From: the human T2T-CHM13v2.0 reference genome, Homo sapiens
DNA: 64,000 bases
Reading direction: 5' to 3' (one strand)
Assembly: GCF_009914755.1 (NCBI RefSeq)
Contig: NC_060925.1
Positions 33,153 through 60,930 of this stretch are shown one piece after another. The notes below the pieces were generated by a model, which did no database searches, was not told the DNA's origin, and saw only the letters and a program-made list of their open reading frames with translations. Position numbers and translations under genes: made by a program. Numbering within the stretch: the first letter of the stretch is position 1; the number at the start of each line of letters is the position of its first letter.

Positions 33153-35037
33153 CTAAGTAGTTGTTACAACTCTTTCCAAGCATATGGTTCTCATTTTTAA
33201 TAGCCCCTGTTTTGCAATATGTTTTTCATTCTAATATGGAGCAGAGTGTGCTCTCTAGATGGTTATCTAGTGATAAAAAAATAAAGGGCAACCTAACTAT
33301 ATGGCCAGTTGGGCATCAGATGACTATCTAGCAAGATTATAGTCACCCAAACATCTAGGAAGTATCCAGATAGTCTAGAATATTGGTTGCTTTCTTCCTC
33401 CTATCCGTTCTTGTGTAGAGGCCAAATGCAATGAGCATGGATGTTCCAGGCACCTGGTGGGTCTCCTTCAGCATCTGTTGTACCAAGTGGGATAGATATC
33501 CCACCGCCTTCCTATACCCATTGCAAACATGTCACTAAATATCTGTTGTTAAGCAGCCAATCCATACCTTATCAGATCTCAATACCCTACTCATACTATT
33601 TATTCTACCTAGAATTTTCTTCTCAAAGTTCTGCACTAAGCAAAATTCGACTTGACTTTCAAATTTTACTAAAATACAATGTCTCCTGTGAAGACTTCCT
33701 TGGCTGCTCTTTTCTTGCTCTCCTCCCTCCCTATTGTCTAAGAAGAATAGATCAAACTCACCAGTCTTTACTTACACACACACACGCCCCAACCTATATA
33801 TATACACACCTACATGTATATCTGCATATACATCTGATATAGGTAACACACATACATGTGTATTATATGTCATACATATACATATATGTACCAGAACATT
33901 TATATCATGAAAGCATAGCCATATGTTTATATGAGTCCTCTCTTGCTAGACTGAGGGCTATCGAATGGCAAAGACTGTCTCATTCAAGTCTTTAGCTATA
34001 GGGTTTCATTCAATAAGAGGCTCTCAGTAAATACGTATTAGATCAGTGGGGGAGTAGATGAAAAAACTGAAGGATTTCCTGAAATTTTTACGGAAGTGTT
34101 TCTGTTTTCATTGCTGTCATTCTTAATATTTTCTCATGACGCATCATATCCCTTTACTTATCTGTAACTTACAAAGTCTTTTTGTGTTGGGTTTGCAGGA
34201 CTACAAAAATGTGTCTCAGGACACATTGACAATGGGGATTCCCACCTCTGTAATCTTTTGTAGGCAGCTGCTTATCTCCTCTGTACTACAAATGTCAGAG
34301 AAAACTTCCCATTGTCAATATTCCCTCACGCCTTGTACTGATACCTCTAGAAACGCTTTAAGTGCCCCAGTGCCTTTTATGGTAGATGGAGCAGAAATGG
34401 CAATAGGCATCCTCCACATCAGTATTTATCCCCATGATTTTGTCTTTCTTGTTCCTTACTGACACTCTCTGTTTCTTCTCTAACTCTTCTGTTGCTTCCT
34501 GCAACTTGAGCCTAATTCTATTCCTACTGGGTGCTCCTGGCTAAAGGTCATCCTGCCCTGTTGACACCAAGTGTATATGATCCTCCACGCCCTATTGCAA
34601 AAGCTTAGGAAGGGGGCTGCTCATTGGGTTTTTAATCTCCTCCAAAGCCCCTTTATTGCTGTTTATCCTGGGTCCATTTCCTTAGTTCCAGGACCTGCTT
34701 CAGAGATCGGCCTCCCCATCCTCTCAAGACAGCCATCTGTCTTGGTCACCGCACACTCCCTGCCTCTCAGTGAGAGCCACACTTAACTTTGTATCAGAGA
34801 GACTGCATGTCTTTTATTGAAATATCTTAGACCCACATCCTGATACCAAACATTCTCATAACGCTGTATTTTCTCTCCTACTTGAAGCATGAAGTTTTCA
34901 TATCATCTCAGATCCTTAAAATAAAACCTATCCAGGGTGCAATTTTGACTAGCAATACATAAAATGTCACAACAAACATAACGTTTCCTGGAGTACCTTT
35001 GATACTCTAGGCCTCACAGTCCCGAGAGAAAGAATAA

Positions 35038-35457
<420 letters not shown>

Positions 35458-35834
35458 CACTTTTTTTAAACTAAATAGCAAATATAGATAAACTCACCTC
35501 TAATGAAGAAAGGGAAAAATAAAATACAGTAGGGTCCTAAGAAAAATACTGCCCCAAACAAGGAATAAATACATAAAGTGCATACTTCTAAAGATTTTCC
35601 CCAGAATACTTTAAACAATTTGATAACAACTTGCTTGCCCTCTGGTAGAAACAAGAGAAAAGTAGGCCCTCAGCGTGATAGTAGGCAATTTTTAAACCTA
35701 CCCAAATTTTATCTTTTTATTATTCCAGTGAAGGTCTCTACTTCCTTGCTCTCCTAATTATAAGGTTTTATGATTGAGATTACTCTCGCTTTCACACTAC
35801 ACTTATTTTCCTTTATCTCAAGGAAGGAGTCTAG

Positions 35835-36210
35835 TTTTGCTCTATTCAATACAATATCTGCTAGCCACATGTGGCAATTTAATTTTTAACTAAAATTAAA
35901 TAAGATTTAAAATGCAATTCTTCAGCCATACTCGCCATGTTTCAAGTGCTCATAGCCACATTTGGCTAGTGACTATTTGGAAAACGCAGATAGAAAACGT
36001 TGCCACCTAACATTAGGTATATCTCCTAATGCTATCCCTCCCCCCTCCCCCCACCACACATGGGTGCAGCACACCAACATGGCACATGTATATATATGTA
36101 ACTAACCTGCACGTTGTGCACATGTACCCTAAAACTTAAAGTATAATAAAAAAAAGAAAGAAAGAAAACGTTGCCATCACCATAGAAAGTTCTACTGGAC
36201 AGCACTGGTC
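35835..36210. mobile_element. MER3-like hAT-Charlie element, split by an L1PA insertion
   Basis: ctagccacatgtggc...tttcaagtgctcatagccacat...gaaagttctactggacagcactg. Confidence 0.8.
36006..36162 (+). mobile_element. 5'-inverted (twin-primed) L1PA 3' end
   Basis: Antisense part 36006-~36058, sense part to the A-tail; 14-bp TSD AGAAAACGTTGCCA at 35992-36005 and 36163-36176. Confidence 0.92.
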
Positions 36211-36934
36211 TAGAGGAATTCCCATTTCAGTTAGGGTTGATTAAAGTCCCTTTATAATAATAGTACAGAAAGGTAATATTGCCACAGAGGATTTATAAAA
36301 CTCAGAGCCAAAATGTCTTGCCCTTTTAAATGTGACTAAAACTCCTAGTGCCATAGAGTATGGTGCAAGCAGTTCACACATAAAAAGATAGGAGCTCTGC
36401 CTGGGCATAGACGTTTATGGACACTGATGAGGTGGAACAGGAAGAGGATTAATAAAATATTGATTTTTAAAAAGTGATAACTCGTGAGCTGAATGCAAGG
36501 TACTCAGAGGCAGCACTGAAAGTGGCATGACGTGATCACTTTAGGAGTAGTCAGGACATGTCCTAAATTCCCTTAGCCAGCTTTTCAGAGATCATCCCTC
36601 AGTTCAGCTATGAAAGGGTGGAAAGCAGGGGTAAGATTGTAGAAATGAGCACTGGAAATCATAAGATCAGGATTCTATTTCCAGTATCGAAACTCACCAC
36701 TCCAGAGCCTGTGTGTGTGGTGTGCAGATGTGCACACAGTGTCTAGCCAAGGGAATGAGTGGGGACTGCTATCTCCCCACACTACACTCACTGAGCCATG
36801 CACCATGGCATAACATTAACCCATTCATTCATATAAAAGCACCATGTGGGCTAGCAGGAGCCCAAATGAGCCTTGCGGATTTTATTTAATTCTTCTTCTC
36901 TAGCATTCCAGTTATATCTTCTGTAAAATAAATG

Positions 36935-37345
36935 CAATAGACTGAATAGCTATATCCTAATTCTTGAAAACAGTGAGTATGTTTCCTCATATGACAAAAG
37001 GGACTTTGCAATTGTAATTAAATTAGGGATCCAGAGATTATCGTGGATTATATAGGTGAGCTTGATGTAATGACAAGGGTCTTTATGAAAGAAAGGCAGG
37101 AAGTCAAAGACAGAGAAAATGCTGTAACACTAGCTCTGAGGATGGAGGAAGAGGCCACAAACCAAGGAATACAGGCAGCCTCCAACTGCTGGAAAAGGCA
37201 GGAAAACAGATTCTCCCCTAAAGCCTCCAGAAAGAATACAACCCTGAGGATACATCCATCTTACACTTACAACGTCCAGAACTGTAAGATAATAATGTCT
37301 GTTGGTGCTGTTTTAAGCCACTAAACTTGTGGTCACTTGATACAG
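36935..37345 (+). mobile_element. MLT1-family MaLR LTR
   Basis: aaaagggactttgca...ggaaaaggcaggaaaacagattctcccc...ttttaagccactaaacttgtgg...cagcagaaatagaaaact. Confidence 0.85.
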
Positions 37346-37488
37346 CAGAAATAGAAAACTCAACCAATGGCATGTTGAGTTATGTCTAAAATCCTTTTCA
37401 ACTTAACAAACTAATTCCACAGCTTCGATTCGTTCTGAAAAAAAAAAATGTAGAACATATGGCTTACTTTTCACTTAAGAAGAAACAC

Positions 37489-37944
<456 letters not shown>

Positions 37945-37977
37945 TCAGGACCTCTGCTTTTTAGCGGGATCGCAGCC

Positions 37978-38859
37978 CCAGAACCGCAGCCGGGGCTTGG
38001 TGAACACTCCACTGTGCACCTCAAACACCAGCACTATCCAGTCCAGGACACTAAAACTGAAGGCCACCCCCCCACCCCCCGACCATGATACACTGTGTTT
38101 CTCTCTTCTGGTCACAACACATAGTACTACATGTTCACTTCAATGTCTCCCACAAGGACTGGTTCTTATCAAAGACCACCTGCAAGGAATCTGCTCCTGC
38201 CCCCAGAATAATGCTTATCTCTGTTCCCACAGAGCATTGCTTTTCCAAATACCTCTTCACCACAGGCTTCCCATCGACCCAGAGCTCAGTAATCCCTGAA
38301 GTGGACCCCCTGGAACCCACAGATGTGCAGCAAAGTAAGAATGGCCCAAAGACCTTGAAAAGGCCTCCCATCCCACTCAATGAGTACAATATAAAGCAGT
38401 CTCTTTCCTCATAAGGCAGTCTTACTAGCTTGGGTCTAGGCATCACAAAAAGAGGTTGCACCCACAGGCAGAGTCAGGGTGGACTTCAACTGACTAGTGA
38501 ACACCACTCTTGATTTCTATTGTGCTTATCTGGTCACAAAGAAATTCTTGCTGTCTTTGGGAAACACGAGAGCCTTTTTGCCCATGTCTGTGGAAGAAAT
38601 AAAAGGTTGGACGTAAGAAATTGAATTATCTAGTATATTTATAAAAGACAATATAAGAAACAGGAGATTCACTCCTTCTCTTAATCTCACAATTCTGGGT
38701 GTTCTCCACTCCGTGCATCCTCTCTCCAGCCCACACAAGGCTCTTCAAAGTCTCAGACCAGGGACTGGCTCTCAGACGTAGCCTGGGGCTACAAACTGAC
38801 TTCTGAGCCAAGGTACAGGAAGGCTGATGAGGACCAGGAAACAGTGAGAGTTTTGCCAG
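37978..38859 (-). pseudogene. Second, highly decayed non-processed CRP-like pentraxin pseudogene: exon 1 38859-38801, intron 38800-38588, exon 2 38587-37978
   Basis: Exon 1: (CTG in place of ATG) AKLSL/FLVLISL/CTLAQ, then donor gtcagt. Acceptor atttcttccacag, then DMGKKALVFPKDSKNFFVT...VFT...NLF...LHICG/STSGITELWVDGKPVVKRYLEKQCSVGTEISIILG/QEQ/DS...FDKNQSL/GDIE-VNM*YYVL*PEERNTVYHG/AFSFSVLDWIVLVFEVHSGVFTKPRLRF; the ancestral stop position reads TGG. Many stops and frameshifts, but all pentraxin blocks are present in order with near-correct spacing. Confidence 0.9.
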
Positions 38860-38961
38860 TTCAGTCTTCCTGCTGTTATTCTCTATGGTGAGAATGTCAG
38901 TATCTGAATTCTCAGGGCATAAATGTCTTAGACACCCTTGAATCCAAATATTAGCAAATGT

Positions 38962-38975
38962 GTGAATCATTTTCC
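38962..38975 (-). promoter_or_regulatory. Proximal HNF1-like element upstream of the second pseudogene
   Basis: Minus strand CAGTTTTGGAAAATGATTCAC, directly alignable to 61110-61130. Confidence 0.6.
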
Positions 38976-39046
38976 AAAACTGCCTATGAAGGCATTAATT
39001 TGGAGACAAAGTGCAGGATCATTCTCAGGCTGGGAAATTGAAGAAA

Positions 39047-39059
39047 GTCATTTATTAGA
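39047..39059 (-). promoter_or_regulatory. Distal HNF1-like element upstream of the second pseudogene
   Basis: GTCATTTATTAGA is 12/13 identical to 61206-61218 and at a similar spacing from the proximal site. Confidence 0.55.
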
Positions 39060-40044
39060 GTTTCTGGCATTCCCAGAGCACCACATTTCTATGGTCATAA
39101 TTAAAAACTTGGGGAAAATTAATTCCATTCACCATTTTAAGGAAACTATTCAAAATATGAAGACCCTTTTTTCATTCTAGCATTATTTAAAGGGGTAAAC
39201 AAGTAGACCAAATACTCATTCTGCCCACTGATTCAAGCCAGAAACCCCTCAACTGCCTTGTCTTCCTAACTTCCAGTAACCTCTTCCCCCATAAGCACTT
39301 TTCAGATCTTTATATCCCTCCAGCATCACTGATTAGAACCATGTAATCTCCCACCTGGATCTCAACAAACCTCTGCTTTATGTCTTCACAGTCCTCCTGT
39401 CCCTCTCCAAACTAGTTTTCACAAAGCAGCTAGAGCAATCATTCTAAAATAAAACTATCAATTCTCACACTTGAAATATTTCAGTGGATCCCTATATTAG
39501 GATTTTCAATCATCTGCATGAAATCCACTCCAGGGGGCTTAACCAAATGTGGGTTTTTTCACCTCACTCCATAAACAGTCTGCAAGGAGGGAGCTCGGTA
39601 CTGGTACAGTAGCTCTGCAGTGACATCCGGGAAGCAAAATTGTTCTGTCTCTGTTCTACCCTCCCTAGCGATGACTTCTAGCCATTGCTGCCATTTGAGA
39701 AAGAAGAGTAAGGAAATAAATCAGCAGAAACTGCAAACTTCCACTCGGTATCAATTGGCCACACTGGTTCACACAGCCACTCCTATCTCCAAGGAAGTAT
39801 AGAGAAAGTTGAGTATTTTAACCTTCTAGTCACTAAAGAAAAGCAAGGCAAGGAAAAAATGGGATTGGAATGAGTGTTAAGTGAGCCAACCCTCTTAACT
39901 CTTAAGAACCTCAGGACGCATTATAAGCTCCTTAACAACTGGAGCCATGTTTGATCCTCTAGCTTCATTTCTCTCAACACCCCAGTGTTGACTTCTCAAT
40001 TCTTTTTGATTTTTCAATGCTTAAAACATGGCAGTATCTCTCTT

Positions 40045-40268
40045 TTTTTTTTTCTTTTTTTTTTTATTATACTTTAAGTTTTAGGGTACATGTGCACATT
40101 GTGCAGGTTAGTTACATATGTATACATGTGCCATGCTGGTGCGCTGCACCCACTAACTCGTCATCTAGCATTAGGTATATCTCCCAGTGCTATCCCTCCC
40201 CCCTCCCCTCACCCCACCACAGTCCCCAGAGTGTGATATTCCCCTTCCTGTGTCCATGTGATCTCATT
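40045..40268 (-). mobile_element. Young (L1PA2-like) L1 3' fragment
   Basis: Minus strand GATCACATGGAC, AATATCAC, GCAGCGCACCAGC and GCACAATGTG, with GAG (not ACA/ACG) at the Ta-diagnostic site. Confidence 0.9.
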
Positions 40269-40938
40269 ACCCCATGTGTTTGCACATGCTATTCATTCTC
40301 ATTCATCCTCATTTGGCCAGCTAACTCCTGCTCTTCTTCCATTCTCAACTTACATGAAACATCCTCTAGGAATGATTTCTGCCCCTCCCAACTCTAGATT
40401 AGGTGATTACCCCACTTATCAACTGTGTTGACATTGACTATTGGCTTGTGCATATCATCCGCTATGACAAAATCCTTGAAGAGGGTGACCAGGATCTGTC
40501 ATGTTCACTATTATGTTCTCAGTGCCTGGTTCAGACTCTGTCACATAGTTAGGGGTTATCATTGTTTATTGTATAAACAAGTCAGAATACTCATTGAAGT
40601 AGTTATTTGTTAATGCTATTCCTGAATATATTGGAATATGTCTTATTCTAAGCAAGTAACATTGAGCTTCCTTGTCTCAGGCGAAGTTTGTAACACAAGC
40701 AACCAAATATGTTGGAGATAATCCCCTGTTTAATATTTGTTCTCCAAAACCGTGAGCTCTTGCAGAGATTATGCTGGGAGTTAAGGGAGGCAGACACATG
40801 GAGGCTTCCTGGGGGAATGAAGAGCACACCTCAGGCTGGCAGGTCTGGTGGGCATCAGGGACCTGGCTCACTTTCTGCCAGCCCTCTGGGAAAGGAACAG
40901 AAGCCCTGAGAAGATGGCTACAAAATGTACCTCTAGAT

Positions 40939-41166
40939 CAGGGGTGTCCAATCCGTTGGCTTCCCTGGGCCGCATTGGAAGAAGAAGAATTGTCTTGGGC
41001 CACACATAAAATACATTAACACTAATGATAGATGATGGGCTAAAAAAAGGAAAATCACAAAAAAAAATTCATAACGTTCTAAGAAAGTTTGTGAATTTGT
41101 TTTGGGTTGCATTCAAAGCTGTTCTGGGCTGCATGTGACCCACAGGACATGGGTTGGACAAGCTTG
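40939..41166 (+). mobile_element. MER30 hAT-Charlie element
   Basis: CAGGGGTGTCCAA...TTGGACAAGCTTG termini; perfect 8-bp TSD CTCTAGAT. Confidence 0.92.
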
Positions 41167-59845: not shown

Positions 59846-60025
59846 GACCCTCTGCTCTGCACTGGCCCTTGTGCTGATGAAAGCAGGGTGAAGAAAGAAG
59901 GGAAATAAATACAGGACCCTTGGGGTGAGACAGCCATGTATGCAGGACAAAAAGACCTCAGAGCCAAAGTCAGGGAAATGTCAGGTGTAATCCCAGGAGG
60001 AACCTTTGGGACCTGCAGTCAGGCC

Positions 60026-60930
60026 TCAGGGCCACCACTAGGGCTTGGTGAACTCTTCACCGTGCACTTCATATGTCAGCATCCACCAGTCTGGGACATT
60101 AGGACTGAAGGCCGCACCAACATAGATGGCATTAATCTCATCTGGCTGTCTAATCTAACCTAATATCTAATCTCACAAAGTCCCACATGTTCACATCTTC
60201 AATATCTCCCACCAAGGACTGGTTTGTGTCAAAGCTCTCAGTGAAGGAATCCTGCTCCTGCCCCAGGATGATGCCTGCCTCTGTCCCCACAGTGTATCCC
60301 TTCTTCAGACTCCTCCTCATCATGGGCTTCCCATCCACCCAGAACGCCATGATCCCTGAGGCGGACTCCAGTTTACACGGAGGTACACAGTGCAGGAGAA
60401 CTCTTAGGAGACTTGAAAACTATCCCACTTCCACCCACGGATGTGCTGTAGCCTCCGGTCTTTTCCTTAGAGAGGAGGATTCATTATCTAGTCCTCATGG
60501 CATAAGAAAAAAAGGCTATGTTCACAGGTCAGGTGCATATAGACATGGAGACACACAATAAAGGCCTTGAGTGCCTTCTTTAGCTCTGCAGTCAGGATCA
60601 CAAAGGAATTGTCTGACTCTGGGAAAACACAAAACCCTTTTTGTTCACATCTGTAGGATAGAAAGCAGAGAGAAAAAAGGTCATCAGTTAAGCTTGTCAG
60701 GCCACAAAGATGTATTCCTCGCAATGTACCAAGAGATTGGACTTAGAAACCACAGCCTGAACTCTGCCCCAGGCCACAACCTCTCACCCATGCTGGCCCT
60801 TTTCCCTAACTTGGCTTTGCACAGTCATATTTACAGGACAAGATCTCAGCCATCAGCGGAAGCAATGCCTCCCTGTCTGAGGGAAAGCACTGGGAAGCTG
60901 ATGAAAACCAGGAAACATGGAAAACTCCAT
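60026..60930 (-). pseudogene. CRPP1: Non-processed C-reactive protein-like (short pentraxin) pseudogene: exon 1 60930-60873, intron 60872-60651, exon 2 60650-60026
   Basis: Manual minus-strand translation across frameshifts. Exon 1: ME..CFLVFISF/PSAFPQT. Acceptor ttctatcctacag. Exon 2: DVNKKGFVF/ESDNSFVILTAELKKALKAFIVCLHVYMHLTCEHSLF/SYAMRT/DNE/ILLSKEKTGGYSTSVGGSGIVFK.../ESASGIMAFWVDGKPMMRRSLKKGYTVGTEAGIILGQEQDSFTESFDTNQSLVGDIEDVNMWDFV[insert]PDEINAIYVGAAFSPNVPDWWMLTYEVHGEEFTKP*WWP*. This is colinear with CRP from end to end. It has multiple frameshifts, an in-frame TAG and a donor reading GG instead of GT. The CRPP1 name comes from recall of the locus, so it is less certain than the family call. 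Confidence 0.92.

What the first reader, a model, noticed from the sequence alone, without database searches (positions are those of the whole stretch)
37978..38859. A second, apparently unnamed CRP-like pseudogene with its complete two-exon structure, 22 kb from the CRPP1-like copy
Seen in the sequence: a signal-peptide exon (CTG-AKLSL/FLVLISL/CTLAQ), a GT donor at 38800, a 213-nt intron, an acceptor at the CRP position (cag|AC ATG GGC = D-M-G), and every pentraxin block from ALVFPK through GITELWVDGKP, ILG/QEQ/DS, FDKNQSL and FTKP. Its 3' flank (37910-37955) also aligns with the flank of the other copy (59970-60015). Established knowledge: CRP and APCS are two-exon genes with one short intron just after the leader, so this is a tandem-duplicated gene and not a retrocopy. 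Inference: I recall only one named human CRP pseudogene, and this copy is broken into short out-of-frame pieces that annotation would easily miss. The locus would then have held at least three same-strand CRP-type genes.
Basis: partly seen in the sequence, partly recalled or inferred. Interest (0 to 1): 0.85.

Follow-up and report, generated by a model that had tools for sequence, protein, structure and literature searches.

The report
Old unannotated CRP-type pseudogene relic
This is a real but long-dead, heavily broken extra copy of the C-reactive protein gene lying 22 kb from the known CRP pseudogene; it is an ordinary gene fossil that records a very old duplication at this immune-gene locus.

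Summary
Window 37978-38859 (minus strand) carries a complete two-exon pentraxin gene relic. It has a leader exon, a 213-nt remnant of the CRP intron at the CRP position, a full exon 2 and about 100 nt of 3'UTR-like flank. Homology is far beyond chance: Pfam Pentaxin E 7e-9 and 1e-12, blastn to the CRP gene E 2e-54, tblastn E 3e-14. RefSeq has nothing there, and my literature searches found no second CRP pseudogene; I could not inspect GENCODE.

It belongs to the CRP clade, not SAP or MPTX. It is dead: no ATG, no stop at the CRP position, 4-6 in-frame stops, 3-16 frameshifting indels, and a longest pentraxin-frame ORF of 108 aa.

It is old. K80 distance to CRP is 0.53, against 0.31 for CRPP1. 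Divergence is equal at all three codon positions, which points to neutral decay. Like CRPP1, it lacks a 2-codon insertion found in 33 of 36 informative human-type CRPs from primates, rodents, artiodactyls and afrotherians. It therefore probably arose before the placental radiation by tandem DNA duplication and died early.

This is a new member of a known kind, of modest interest. By-product: placental "CRP" proteins split into two old paralogue groups, and CRPP1 resembles the second.

The parts
38801..38859 (-). Relic of exon 1 (leader/signal-peptide exon). There is no ATG at the homologous position; it reads CTG.
   Evidence: Pairwise alignment to CRP exon 1 gives 38/58 identical with 3 frameshifting gap runs. 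blastn to the CRPP1 exon-1 relic (window 60876-60917) gives 78.6% over 42 nt, E 8e-4, colinear.
38588..38800 (-). Relic of the single CRP intron, 213 nt. It starts GT at 38800 and ends in a polypyrimidine tract plus cag at 38590-38588.
   Evidence: Sequence read. Global alignment to the 286-nt CRP intron scores z 5.0, or 5.7 after removing CRP's poly-A and GT repeats; 0 of 500 shuffles reach it. The core without the 25 nt at each end scores z 3.6, 0 of 500.
37978..38587 (-). Relic of exon 2 (whole mature pentraxin domain), broken by stops and frameshifts. The CRP stop position reads TGG.
   Evidence: blastn to the CRP gene gives 63.2% over 657 columns, E 2e-54. Pfam Pentaxin gives E 7.3e-9 and 1.2e-12. 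The frameshift-aware alignment needs 3-5 frameshifts and 4-6 stops, depending on the reference protein. The DNA alignment has 21 gap runs, 16 of them not multiples of 3, and 5 stops in the CRP-projected frame.
37880..37977 (-). 3'UTR-like flank shared with CRP and CRPP1.
   Evidence: Three-way alignment. blastn between the candidate and CRPP1 runs on to 37814, where a masked repeat (37488-37814) begins.
38860..38890 (-). Short 5'UTR-like stretch just upstream of the leader exon. Evidence is weak.
   Evidence: It aligns with the CRP 5'UTR in the global alignment. The 200 nt upstream as a whole are only marginally above shuffles: z 2.3, with 12 of 500 shuffles reaching the score.
59993..60917 (-). 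Context: CRPP1, the known pseudogene. The RefSeq span is 59993-60639; an exon-1 relic lies at 60876-60917.
   Evidence: Given annotation.

Best explanation
This is a non-functional, unprocessed (DNA-duplicated) pseudogene of the CRP branch of the short pentraxins. An old tandem duplication copied a whole CRP-type gene, from the 5'UTR through the leader exon, intron and exon 2 to the start of the 3'UTR. The copy lies on the same strand, downstream of CRP and CRPP1.

The copy lost coding constraint early and has drifted neutrally since. Today it has no start codon, no stop at the right place, several in-frame stops and many frameshifts, so it cannot make a pentraxin.

The duplication most likely predates the radiation of placental mammals but postdates the split from marsupials.

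What is shown: the homology, the two-exon anatomy, CRP-clade membership, the lesions, single-copy status, and the absence of the human-type 2-codon insertion.

What is inferred: the age, early death, and lack of any present function.
For: **Homology and anatomy.**

**CRP clade.**
- In frameshift-aware alignments of 122 proteins to the relic, the 28 best are exactly the 28 eutherian CRP-type proteins in the set (scores 207-284).
- The 4 marsupial CRP-like proteins score 155-198. SAP and MPTX score 169 or less; human APCS scores 100.
- The protein tree of 59 rows puts the relic in the eutherian CRP clade (100/99), with marsupial CRP-like as sister (100/98).
- The exon-2 DNA tree groups CRP, CRPP1 and the relic at 100/99 against APCS, LOC646430 and MPTX1.
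- An AU test weakly rejects a tree that keeps all other CRP-type rows together without the relic (dlnL 9.7, p 0.024).

**Death.**

**Neutral decay.** The p-distance to CRP by codon position is 0.362/0.369/0.384. For the two working genes CRP and APCS it is 0.376/0.256/0.498.

**Age.**
- K80 to CRP is 0.529, against 0.313 for CRPP1-CRP and 0.536 for CRP-APCS. Terminal branches are 0.46 (relic), 0.20 (CRPP1) and 0.14 (CRP).
- blastn cannot align the intron.
- The relic and CRPP1 both fall outside the clade of 37 human-type CRPs, which has 94/100 support and contains primates, rodents, artiodactyls and afrotherians.
- Both lack a 6-nt insertion. It is present in 33 of 36 informative rows of that clade. 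It is absent from 19 of 19 other placental CRP-type rows, 7 of 7 marsupial rows, APCS, MPTX1 and LOC646430.

**Single copy.** A whole-genome DNA search finds only the relic itself, CRP exon 2 and CRPP1.

**No intact counterpart seen.** None of 58 further CRP-type proteins scores above the lemur CRPs (maximum 256 against 284).
Against: - The protein tree cannot date the copy. Holding the relic together with the 9 primate CRPs costs only 2.4 lnL (AU p 0.46). Its end branch is very long (1.4-1.5), so its exact place is unresolved.
- The p 0.024 is only modestly below 0.05, and I named the group after seeing the tree.
- The 2-codon indel is a single character. It lies in the worst-aligned part of the relic, and 3 talpid rows inside the human-type clade also lack it.
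- Identity to CRP varies along exon 2 from 0.39 to 0.84, and this profile correlates with the CRP-APCS profile (Spearman 0.60, p 0.007). That leaves room for a period under selection. CRP's own constraint produces the same pattern, and CRPP1 shows it too (0.64).
- A constant clock puts the branch of 0.46 before the marsupial split, which conflicts with the tree. The branch is therefore probably inflated by misalignment, or early rates were higher.
- Transcription and regulatory activity were not testable here.
Confidence: 0.85

Rival explanations
1. A young, primate-specific duplicate of CRP or CRPP1 that simply mutated a great deal.
For: The AU test does not reject a clade of the relic plus the 9 primate CRPs (p 0.46). 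The best single scores and identities are to lemur CRPs: P0027 scores 284 with 49-50% identity.
Against: K80 is 0.53 to CRP and 0.57 to CRPP1, as large as CRP-APCS. blastn alignment stops at the exon-2 borders. The relic lacks the 6-nt insertion shared by human-type CRPs of primates, rodents, artiodactyls and afrotherians. It sits outside that clade in the tree. Lemur CRPs have short branches, so they are simply closest to the ancestral sequence.
Confidence: 0.05
2. The remains of a distinct CRP-type paralogue that worked for a long time and was lost only later in the human lineage. LOC646430 appears to be such a case for a second SAP gene.
For: The classic pentraxin blocks are much better kept than the rest: 0.72-0.84 against 0.39-0.54 identity in 60-nt windows. 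The profile correlates with CRP-APCS. Other relics in this cluster do have intact counterparts in other mammals.
Against: Divergence from CRP is equal at codon positions 1, 2 and 3. The terminal branch is 2.3 times that of CRPP1. There are many lesions. No protein among the 180 aligned to it (122, 58; P0179-P0190 were not aligned) matches it better than ordinary CRPs. The search with its 108-aa ORF found nothing, but that search sees only proteins of 59-189 aa from named sources.
Confidence: 0.08
3. A decayed coding sequence reused as a non-coding element, for example a lncRNA exon or an enhancer of CRP.
For: It lies in the interval where published SNPs associated with CRP level map (table seen). 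Nothing here excludes regulatory activity.
Against: RefSeq lists no transcript or functional element in the window. There is no Rfam family in 36000-41000. The neutral-looking divergence gives no sign of constraint.
Confidence: 0.04
4. A processed retrocopy, or a chance resemblance.
For: None found.
Against: An intron homologous to the CRP intron sits at the CRP position. There is no poly-A after the 3' flank; in gene orientation the run there is poly-T. E-values are 2e-54 for DNA and 1e-12 for Pfam.
Confidence: 0.01

Closest known systems
CRPP1 (C-reactive protein pseudogene 1; window 59993-60639, minus strand)
   Same: Same strand, same cluster, same two-exon unprocessed structure, and same CRP clade. 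Both lack the 2-codon insertion of human-type CRP and fall outside that clade. The 3' flank is shared.
   Different: It is a separate locus 21-22 kb away, only 63-65% identical to CRPP1. It is far more decayed: K80 to CRP 0.53 against 0.31, branch 0.46 against 0.20, frameshift-aware score against CRP 230-242 against 497. No sister relation to CRPP1 is resolved.
CRP (the working parent-type gene, chr1:158849333-158851633, minus strand)
   Same: Gene plan: leader exon, one intron just after the leader, one large exon and the start of the 3'UTR. All pentraxin blocks appear in order.
   Different: No ATG, no stop at the CRP position, 4-6 stops and 3-16 frameshifting indels in exon 2. The intron is 213 nt against 286 nt and lacks CRP's poly-A and GT repeats. 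The 6-nt insertion is absent. The promoter region is not significantly alignable.
LOC646430 (RefSeq 'amyloid P component, serum pseudogene') and MPTX1 (mucosal pentraxin pseudogene)
   Same: These are other dead short-pentraxin genes of the same 1q23 cluster.
   Different: They belong to the SAP and MPTX clades, not the CRP clade, and are far less decayed. MPTX1 keeps a 198-aa open frame. LOC646430 scores 594 against APCS with 2 stops and 3 frameshifts. Both are annotated.

Membership tests
Pentraxin domain (Pfam PF00354) | Significant match to the family profile | tested here: met
   E 7.3e-9, 46.1 bits in the six-frame genome search. E 1.2e-12, 48.4 bits against a cut-off of 25 for the 108-aa ORF, profile positions 91-144 of 194. 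The two other ORF pieces (70 and 56 aa) gave no Pfam match at E<=1.
Pentraxin domain (Pfam PF00354) | Intact pentraxin signature H-x-C-x-S/T-W-x-S and the conserved cysteine pair (motif and pairing recalled, not from a call) | tested here: not met
   H-I-C is kept, but a 1-nt insertion follows and the T-S-W-E-S part is lost. The first cysteine (FTVCL in CRP) reads FTSQL. This is expected for a dead gene. It argues against a working protein, not against descent from a pentraxin.
CRP branch of the short pentraxins (as against SAP/APCS and MPTX) | Groups with CRP proteins or genes in phylogeny and scores best against them | tested here: met
   The 28 best of 122 proteins are the 28 eutherian CRP-type ones. 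The eutherian CRP clade has 100/99 support in the protein tree. The group CRP+CRPP1+relic has 100/99 in the DNA tree. AU p 0.024 against exclusion.
Unprocessed (duplicated) pseudogene | Parent's intron kept at the same position; located beside the parent | tested here: met
   The 213-nt spacer is homologous to the CRP intron (z 5.0-5.7, 0 of 500 shuffles). The acceptor is at the CRP position. It lies on the same strand, 29 kb from CRP.
Unprocessed (duplicated) pseudogene | Disabling lesions; no long open frame | tested here: met
   No ATG (CTG) and the stop position reads TGG. Exon 2 has 4-6 stops and 3-5 frameshifts at minimum. There are 16 gap runs that are not multiples of 3 in exon 2 and 3 in exon 1. 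The longest pentraxin-frame ORF is 108 aa and starts with GTG.
Unprocessed (duplicated) pseudogene | Not transcribed or translated into a product | not testable with these tools
   No expression data are available here. RefSeq lists no transcript.
Human-type CRP clade ('A' in my trees) | 2-codon insertion (human ...YTELSSTRGYS...) and placement inside the clade | tested here: not met
   The relic and CRPP1 both lack the 6 nt in the DNA alignment and in the protein alignment. Both are outside the 37-row clade, which has 94/100 support. Caveat: alignment of the relic is weakest in this region.

The most novel reading that the evidence does not exclude
The relic is the only trace in humans of a third CRP-type gene that arose in the placental stem lineage. 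CRPP1 would be the human remnant of a second, 'B-type' CRP that is still intact in carnivores, horses, rhinos, whales, pigs, camels, elephants, manatees, armadillos and sloths. On this reading the ancestral placental locus carried a tandem array of at least three CRP-type genes that were lost differentially. It would also mean that the protein called 'CRP' in many veterinary species is a paralogue, not the orthologue, of human CRP.
Probability: 0.45. Interest if true: 0.55.

Novelty: new member of a known kind. Interest (0 to 1): 0.3.

Why it matters
For genome annotation, this adds one missing unprocessed pseudogene to the human pentraxin cluster at T2T chr1:158,819,978-158,820,859, minus strand. 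A further unannotated SAP-type relic lies at chr1:158,646,105-158,646,533. With both, the cluster would hold two working genes and five dead ones.

For pentraxin biology, the relic and CRPP1 show that the CRP gene was duplicated more than once before placental mammals radiated. The protein trees made along the way suggest that placental 'CRP' proteins fall into two old paralogue groups. If that holds, cross-species comparisons of CRP as an acute-phase marker would need to be re-read with orthology in mind.

The relic itself has no apparent present function.

Tried and rejected
**Things tried that did not help**

1. A specific intact orthologue. I aligned 122 proteins and then 58 more CRP-type proteins to the relic with a frameshift-aware aligner. 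None stood out above ordinary CRPs. P0179-P0190 were not aligned.
2. A search with the relic's own 108-aa ORF. No candidate was found. The tool sees only proteins of 59-189 aa from named sources, so the blank says little.
3. Assigning the relic to paralogue group A or B by diagnostic residues.
   - Under strict thresholds only 1 column qualified.
   - Under looser thresholds 8 qualified. The relic had 2 A states, 1 B state, 3 other and 2 gaps. CRPP1 had 0 A, 2 B, 5 other and 1 gap. This is not decisive.
   - Mean identity of the relic is 0.440 to group A and 0.434 to group B, which does not discriminate.
4. Dating from the protein tree. This failed because the AU test does not reject a primate clade. 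I relied instead on DNA distances and the 6-nt indel.
5. A sister relation between the relic and CRPP1. The DNA tree leaves a trichotomy. The shared 3' flank also aligns with CRP, so it gives no support.
6. Literature.
- Searches were for CRPP1 (23 papers, listing seen), 'C-reactive protein pseudogene' (0), 'CRP pseudogene' (3), pentraxin/pseudogene/CRP/APCS/MPTX (8), short pentraxin/pseudogene/duplication/synteny, 'pentraxin pseudogene'/CRPP2 and similar (6), and 'evolution of C-reactive protein' (68; one listed). None described a second human CRP pseudogene.
   - The word searches in PMC6503050 returned no hits for pseudogene, duplicat, paralog, two CRP or gene copies. PMC11211361 has no hit for pseudogene; its single 'gene duplication' hit is about the CRP/SAP origin. 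I saw only those find results.
   - 'AL445528' led to AL445528.1, which is named as a flank on the other side of CRP (passages), so it is not this relic.
   - Goldman 1987 and Walsh 1996 were seen only as entries in a reference list and were not read.
7. One search printed nothing because of a bad blast flag; one search repeated it correctly.

Full report
**What is there**

Read on the minus strand, window 38859-37978 has the plan of the CRP gene.
- A leader-like exon begins at 38859. CTG stands where CRP has ATG, and the hydrophobic leader is split over shifted frames.
- A GT sits at 38800.
- A 213-nt spacer ends in a pyrimidine tract and cag (38590-38588).
- Exon 2 then begins ACATGGGC at 38587, as CRP exon 2 begins ACATGTCG.

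RefSeq has no gene or transcript at this place. Its pentraxin entries on chr1 are MPTX1, LOC646430, APCS, CRPP1 and CRP.

**Is it more than chance?**

Yes.
- A six-frame search of the whole genome with Pfam Pentaxin listed 18 matches at E<=0.01. One is chr1:158820150-158820314(-), which is window 38150-38314, at E 7.3e-9.
- The 108-aa ORF 38138-38461(-) scores E 1.2e-12, 48.4 bits against a cut-off of 25. The two shorter ORF pieces gave nothing.
- tblastn with human CRP gave two colinear HSPs, aa 82-170 at 40% and aa 195-222 at 54%, summed E 3e-14.
- blastn of the CRP gene gave 63.2% identity over 657 columns, E 2e-54, spanning all of exon 2.
- My frameshift-aware protein-to-DNA alignment laid CRP residues 19-224 on 38594..37975.
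- The spacer is a decayed CRP intron: the global alignment scores z 5.0-5.7, and 0 of 500 shuffles reach it. The core alone scores z 3.6, 0 of 500.
- About 100 nt after the stop position align among the relic, CRPP1 and the CRP 3'UTR. blastn between the relic and CRPP1 runs to 37814, where a masked repeat starts.
- The 200 nt upstream are only marginal: z 2.3, with 12 of 500 shuffles reaching the score.
- The relic is single copy. A genome-wide DNA search found only the relic itself, CRP exon 2 (72% over 336 nt) and CRPP1 (76-77%).

**It is dead**

- There is no ATG, and the CRP stop position reads TGG.
- The minimum damage in exon 2 depends on the guide protein: 6 stops and 3 frameshifts with human CRP, 5 and 5 with aye-aye CRP, 4 and 5 with APCS.
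- A plain DNA alignment to CRP exon 2 has 21 gap runs, 16 of them not multiples of three, and 5 stops in the CRP-projected frame. Exon 1 has 3 frameshifting runs.
- The pentraxin signature survives only as H-I-C, and the first conserved cysteine is gone. The motif itself is recalled, not taken from a call.
- The longest pentraxin-frame ORF is 108 aa and starts with GTG.
- There is no Rfam family in 36000-41000.

**Which pentraxin?**

- I fetched 120 short pentraxins with a CRP/APCS/MPTX1 profile. I aligned them, plus human CRP and APCS, to the relic, each optimised on its own.
- The 28 best scores (207-284) are exactly the 28 eutherian CRP-type proteins. The four marsupial CRP-like proteins score 155-198. 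SAP and MPTX score 169 or less, and human APCS scores 100.
- A 59-row maximum-likelihood tree places both the relic and CRPP1 in the eutherian CRP clade (100/99), with marsupial CRP-like as sister (100/98).
- An exon-2 DNA tree of the six human copies groups CRP, CRPP1 and the relic (100/99).
- Forcing all other CRP-type rows into a clade without the relic costs 9.7 lnL, AU p 0.024. This is a modest rejection, and I named the group after seeing the tree.

**How old, and when did it die?**

*Distances.*
- K80 distances over exon 2 are CRP-relic 0.529, relic-CRPP1 0.569, CRP-CRPP1 0.313 and CRP-APCS 0.536.
- Terminal branches are 0.46 (relic), 0.20 (CRPP1) and 0.14 (CRP), from an unresolved trichotomy.

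*Codon positions.*
- Divergence from CRP is the same at all three codon positions: 0.362/0.369/0.384. CRPP1 gives 0.255/0.238/0.260.
- The working pair CRP-APCS gives 0.376/0.256/0.498.
- Most of the relic's divergence was therefore laid down without coding constraint.

*Patchy identity.*
- Identity to CRP is patchy: 0.39-0.84 in 60-nt windows. The profile correlates with the CRP-APCS profile (Spearman 0.60, p 0.007).
- CRPP1 shows the same pattern (0.64). CRP's own constraint can therefore explain it.

*A larger tree.*
- A second search with CRP alone brought in 70 more proteins. None of the 58 that I aligned beat the lemur CRPs (maximum 256).
- A careful 65-row tree of CRP-type proteins shows a clade of 37 human-type CRPs with 94/100 support. 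It contains primates, rodents, colugo, tree shrew, talpids, ruminants, one pig and one camel protein, dugong, Asian elephant and elephant shrews.
- Both the relic and CRPP1 lie outside that clade. They sit in a basal polytomy with the remaining 19 placental rows. Bootstrap values are rough, because the run had not fully settled.

*A rare change agrees.*
- Human CRP has 6 extra bases (two codons, ...YTELSSTRGYS...) relative to APCS, MPTX1, LOC646430, CRPP1 and the relic.
- At protein level the insertion is present in 33 of the 37 human-type rows. It is absent in 3 talpids and unreadable in 1 truncated row.
- It is absent in 19 of 19 other placental rows and in 7 of 7 marsupial rows.
- Both pseudogenes therefore most likely left the CRP line before that insertion, and so before the placental orders diverged.

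*Against a firm date.*
- The tree does not reject the relic plus the 9 primate CRPs as one clade (p 0.46).
- The indel is one character in a poorly aligned stretch.
- I recall a human-lineage neutral rate of about 2.2e-9 per site per year from the 2002 mouse genome paper; this is not from a call. At that rate the distances give roughly 95-210 million years. The upper part of that range conflicts with the placement after the marsupial split.
- I therefore say only 'placental stem lineage, order of 100-200 million years, dead almost from the start'.

**Mechanism**

The most likely origin is tandem DNA duplication, through unequal exchange, of a whole CRP-type unit. That was followed by neutral decay. 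Retroposition is excluded by the retained intron and the lack of a poly-A tail.

**Annotation and literature**

- RefSeq has nothing at the site.
- A table in PMC6797125 (I saw the one passage returned by the find) lists 5 of 5 intergenic SNPs between GRCh38 159,678,198 and 159,700,546 with OR10J6P and CRPP1 as flanking genes. Two lie below and three above my estimated position of the relic, so that gene set has no entry there either.
- The literature searches found no description of a second human CRP pseudogene. The search and the passages it led to found none either.
- In PMC6503050 the word searches for pseudogene, duplicat, paralog, two CRP and gene copies returned no hits. PMC11211361 has no hit for pseudogene, and its single 'gene duplication' hit concerns the CRP/SAP origin.
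- GENCODE, Ensembl and pseudogene.org could not be consulted, and supplements were closed.

**Verdict**

The object is an ordinary one: an old, unannotated, unprocessed pseudogene in a known gene cluster.

Its modest value lies in completing the map of the pentraxin cluster. It also points, together with CRPP1, to repeated CRP duplication before the placental radiation.

The by-product deserves its own check. Pig (P0121 and P0150) and camel (P0129 and P0173) each have two CRP-type proteins, one falling in each group. Elephants and sirenians are split the same way. This suggests hidden paralogy among mammalian 'CRP' genes. CRPP1 resembles the second group: mean identity 0.569 against 0.547, 2 of 8 diagnostic sites B-like and none A-like, and no insertion.

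Noticed in passing
outside the window: G000 C1:158646105-158646533, minus strand (locus L016): This is another pentraxin relic with no RefSeq gene, lying between LINC02819 and OR10J5. Pfam Pentaxin gives E 7.8e-7 with 10 stops inside the match. The frameshift-aware score is 125 against APCS and 67 against CRP, with 8 stops and 6 frameshifts. It falls in the eutherian SAP clade (98/97) on a very long branch of 2.2.
   Followed up: partly
window 60876-60917 and up to about 61216, minus strand: CRPP1 is larger than its RefSeq span (59993-60639). A leader-exon relic lies at 60876-60917. Homology to CRP exon 1 plus the 5' flank (61.9% over 281 nt) reaches about 61216. The 3' part of the intron also aligns with CRP.
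   Followed up: partly
proteins P0121/P0150 (pig), P0129/P0173 (camel), P0131/P0157 (elephants), P0090/P0159 (sirenians); CRPP1 at window 59993-60917: Placental CRP-type proteins split into two groups. One is a human-type clade of 37 rows (94/100), mostly carrying a 2-residue insertion. The other is a second type of 19 rows without it: carnivores, horse, rhino, whales, hippo, peccary, xenarthrans, pangolin, and one pig, camel, elephant and manatee protein. Pig and camel have one protein of each type. CRPP1 looks like the second type. This suggests an old CRP duplication with differential loss, so 'CRP' may not be orthologous across mammals. I found no mention of this in the two CRP reviews I word-searched.
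   Followed up: partly
outside the window: LOC646430, chr1:158694650-158695246 (loci L004/L008): The RefSeq 'APCS pseudogene' groups at 100/99 with intact 'SAP-like' proteins of ring-tailed lemur (P0048), galago (P0051) and tamarin (P0099, 85% identical). It does not group with APCS itself. It therefore looks like the human remnant of a second SAP gene that other primates still have.
   Followed up: partly
proteins P0121 and P0150 (pig): The two pig CRP-type proteins differ widely in the first half. They are almost identical over roughly the last 85 residues. This suggests gene conversion of the 3' half, or a chimeric gene model. P0150 also carries a 35-residue insert after the leader that looks like retained intron.
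   Followed up: no
window 40055-40268 and 36008-36060: These stretches are 92.5% (214 nt) and 94% (53 nt) identical to a segment 0.5-0.8 kb upstream of CRP (chr1:158852108-158852321). They lie in stretches masked as repeats (40032-40270, 36006-36173). They are most likely copies of an interspersed repeat, not part of the duplication.
   Followed up: no
window about 34900-40800 (by estimated GRCh38 offset): Published SNPs associated with CRP level, listed in PMC6797125 (passage seen), lie about 2-3 kb either side of the relic by my offset estimate. They are at GRCh38 159,679,910, 159,685,728 and 159,685,936. None falls inside the relic. No link to it is shown.
   Followed up: no
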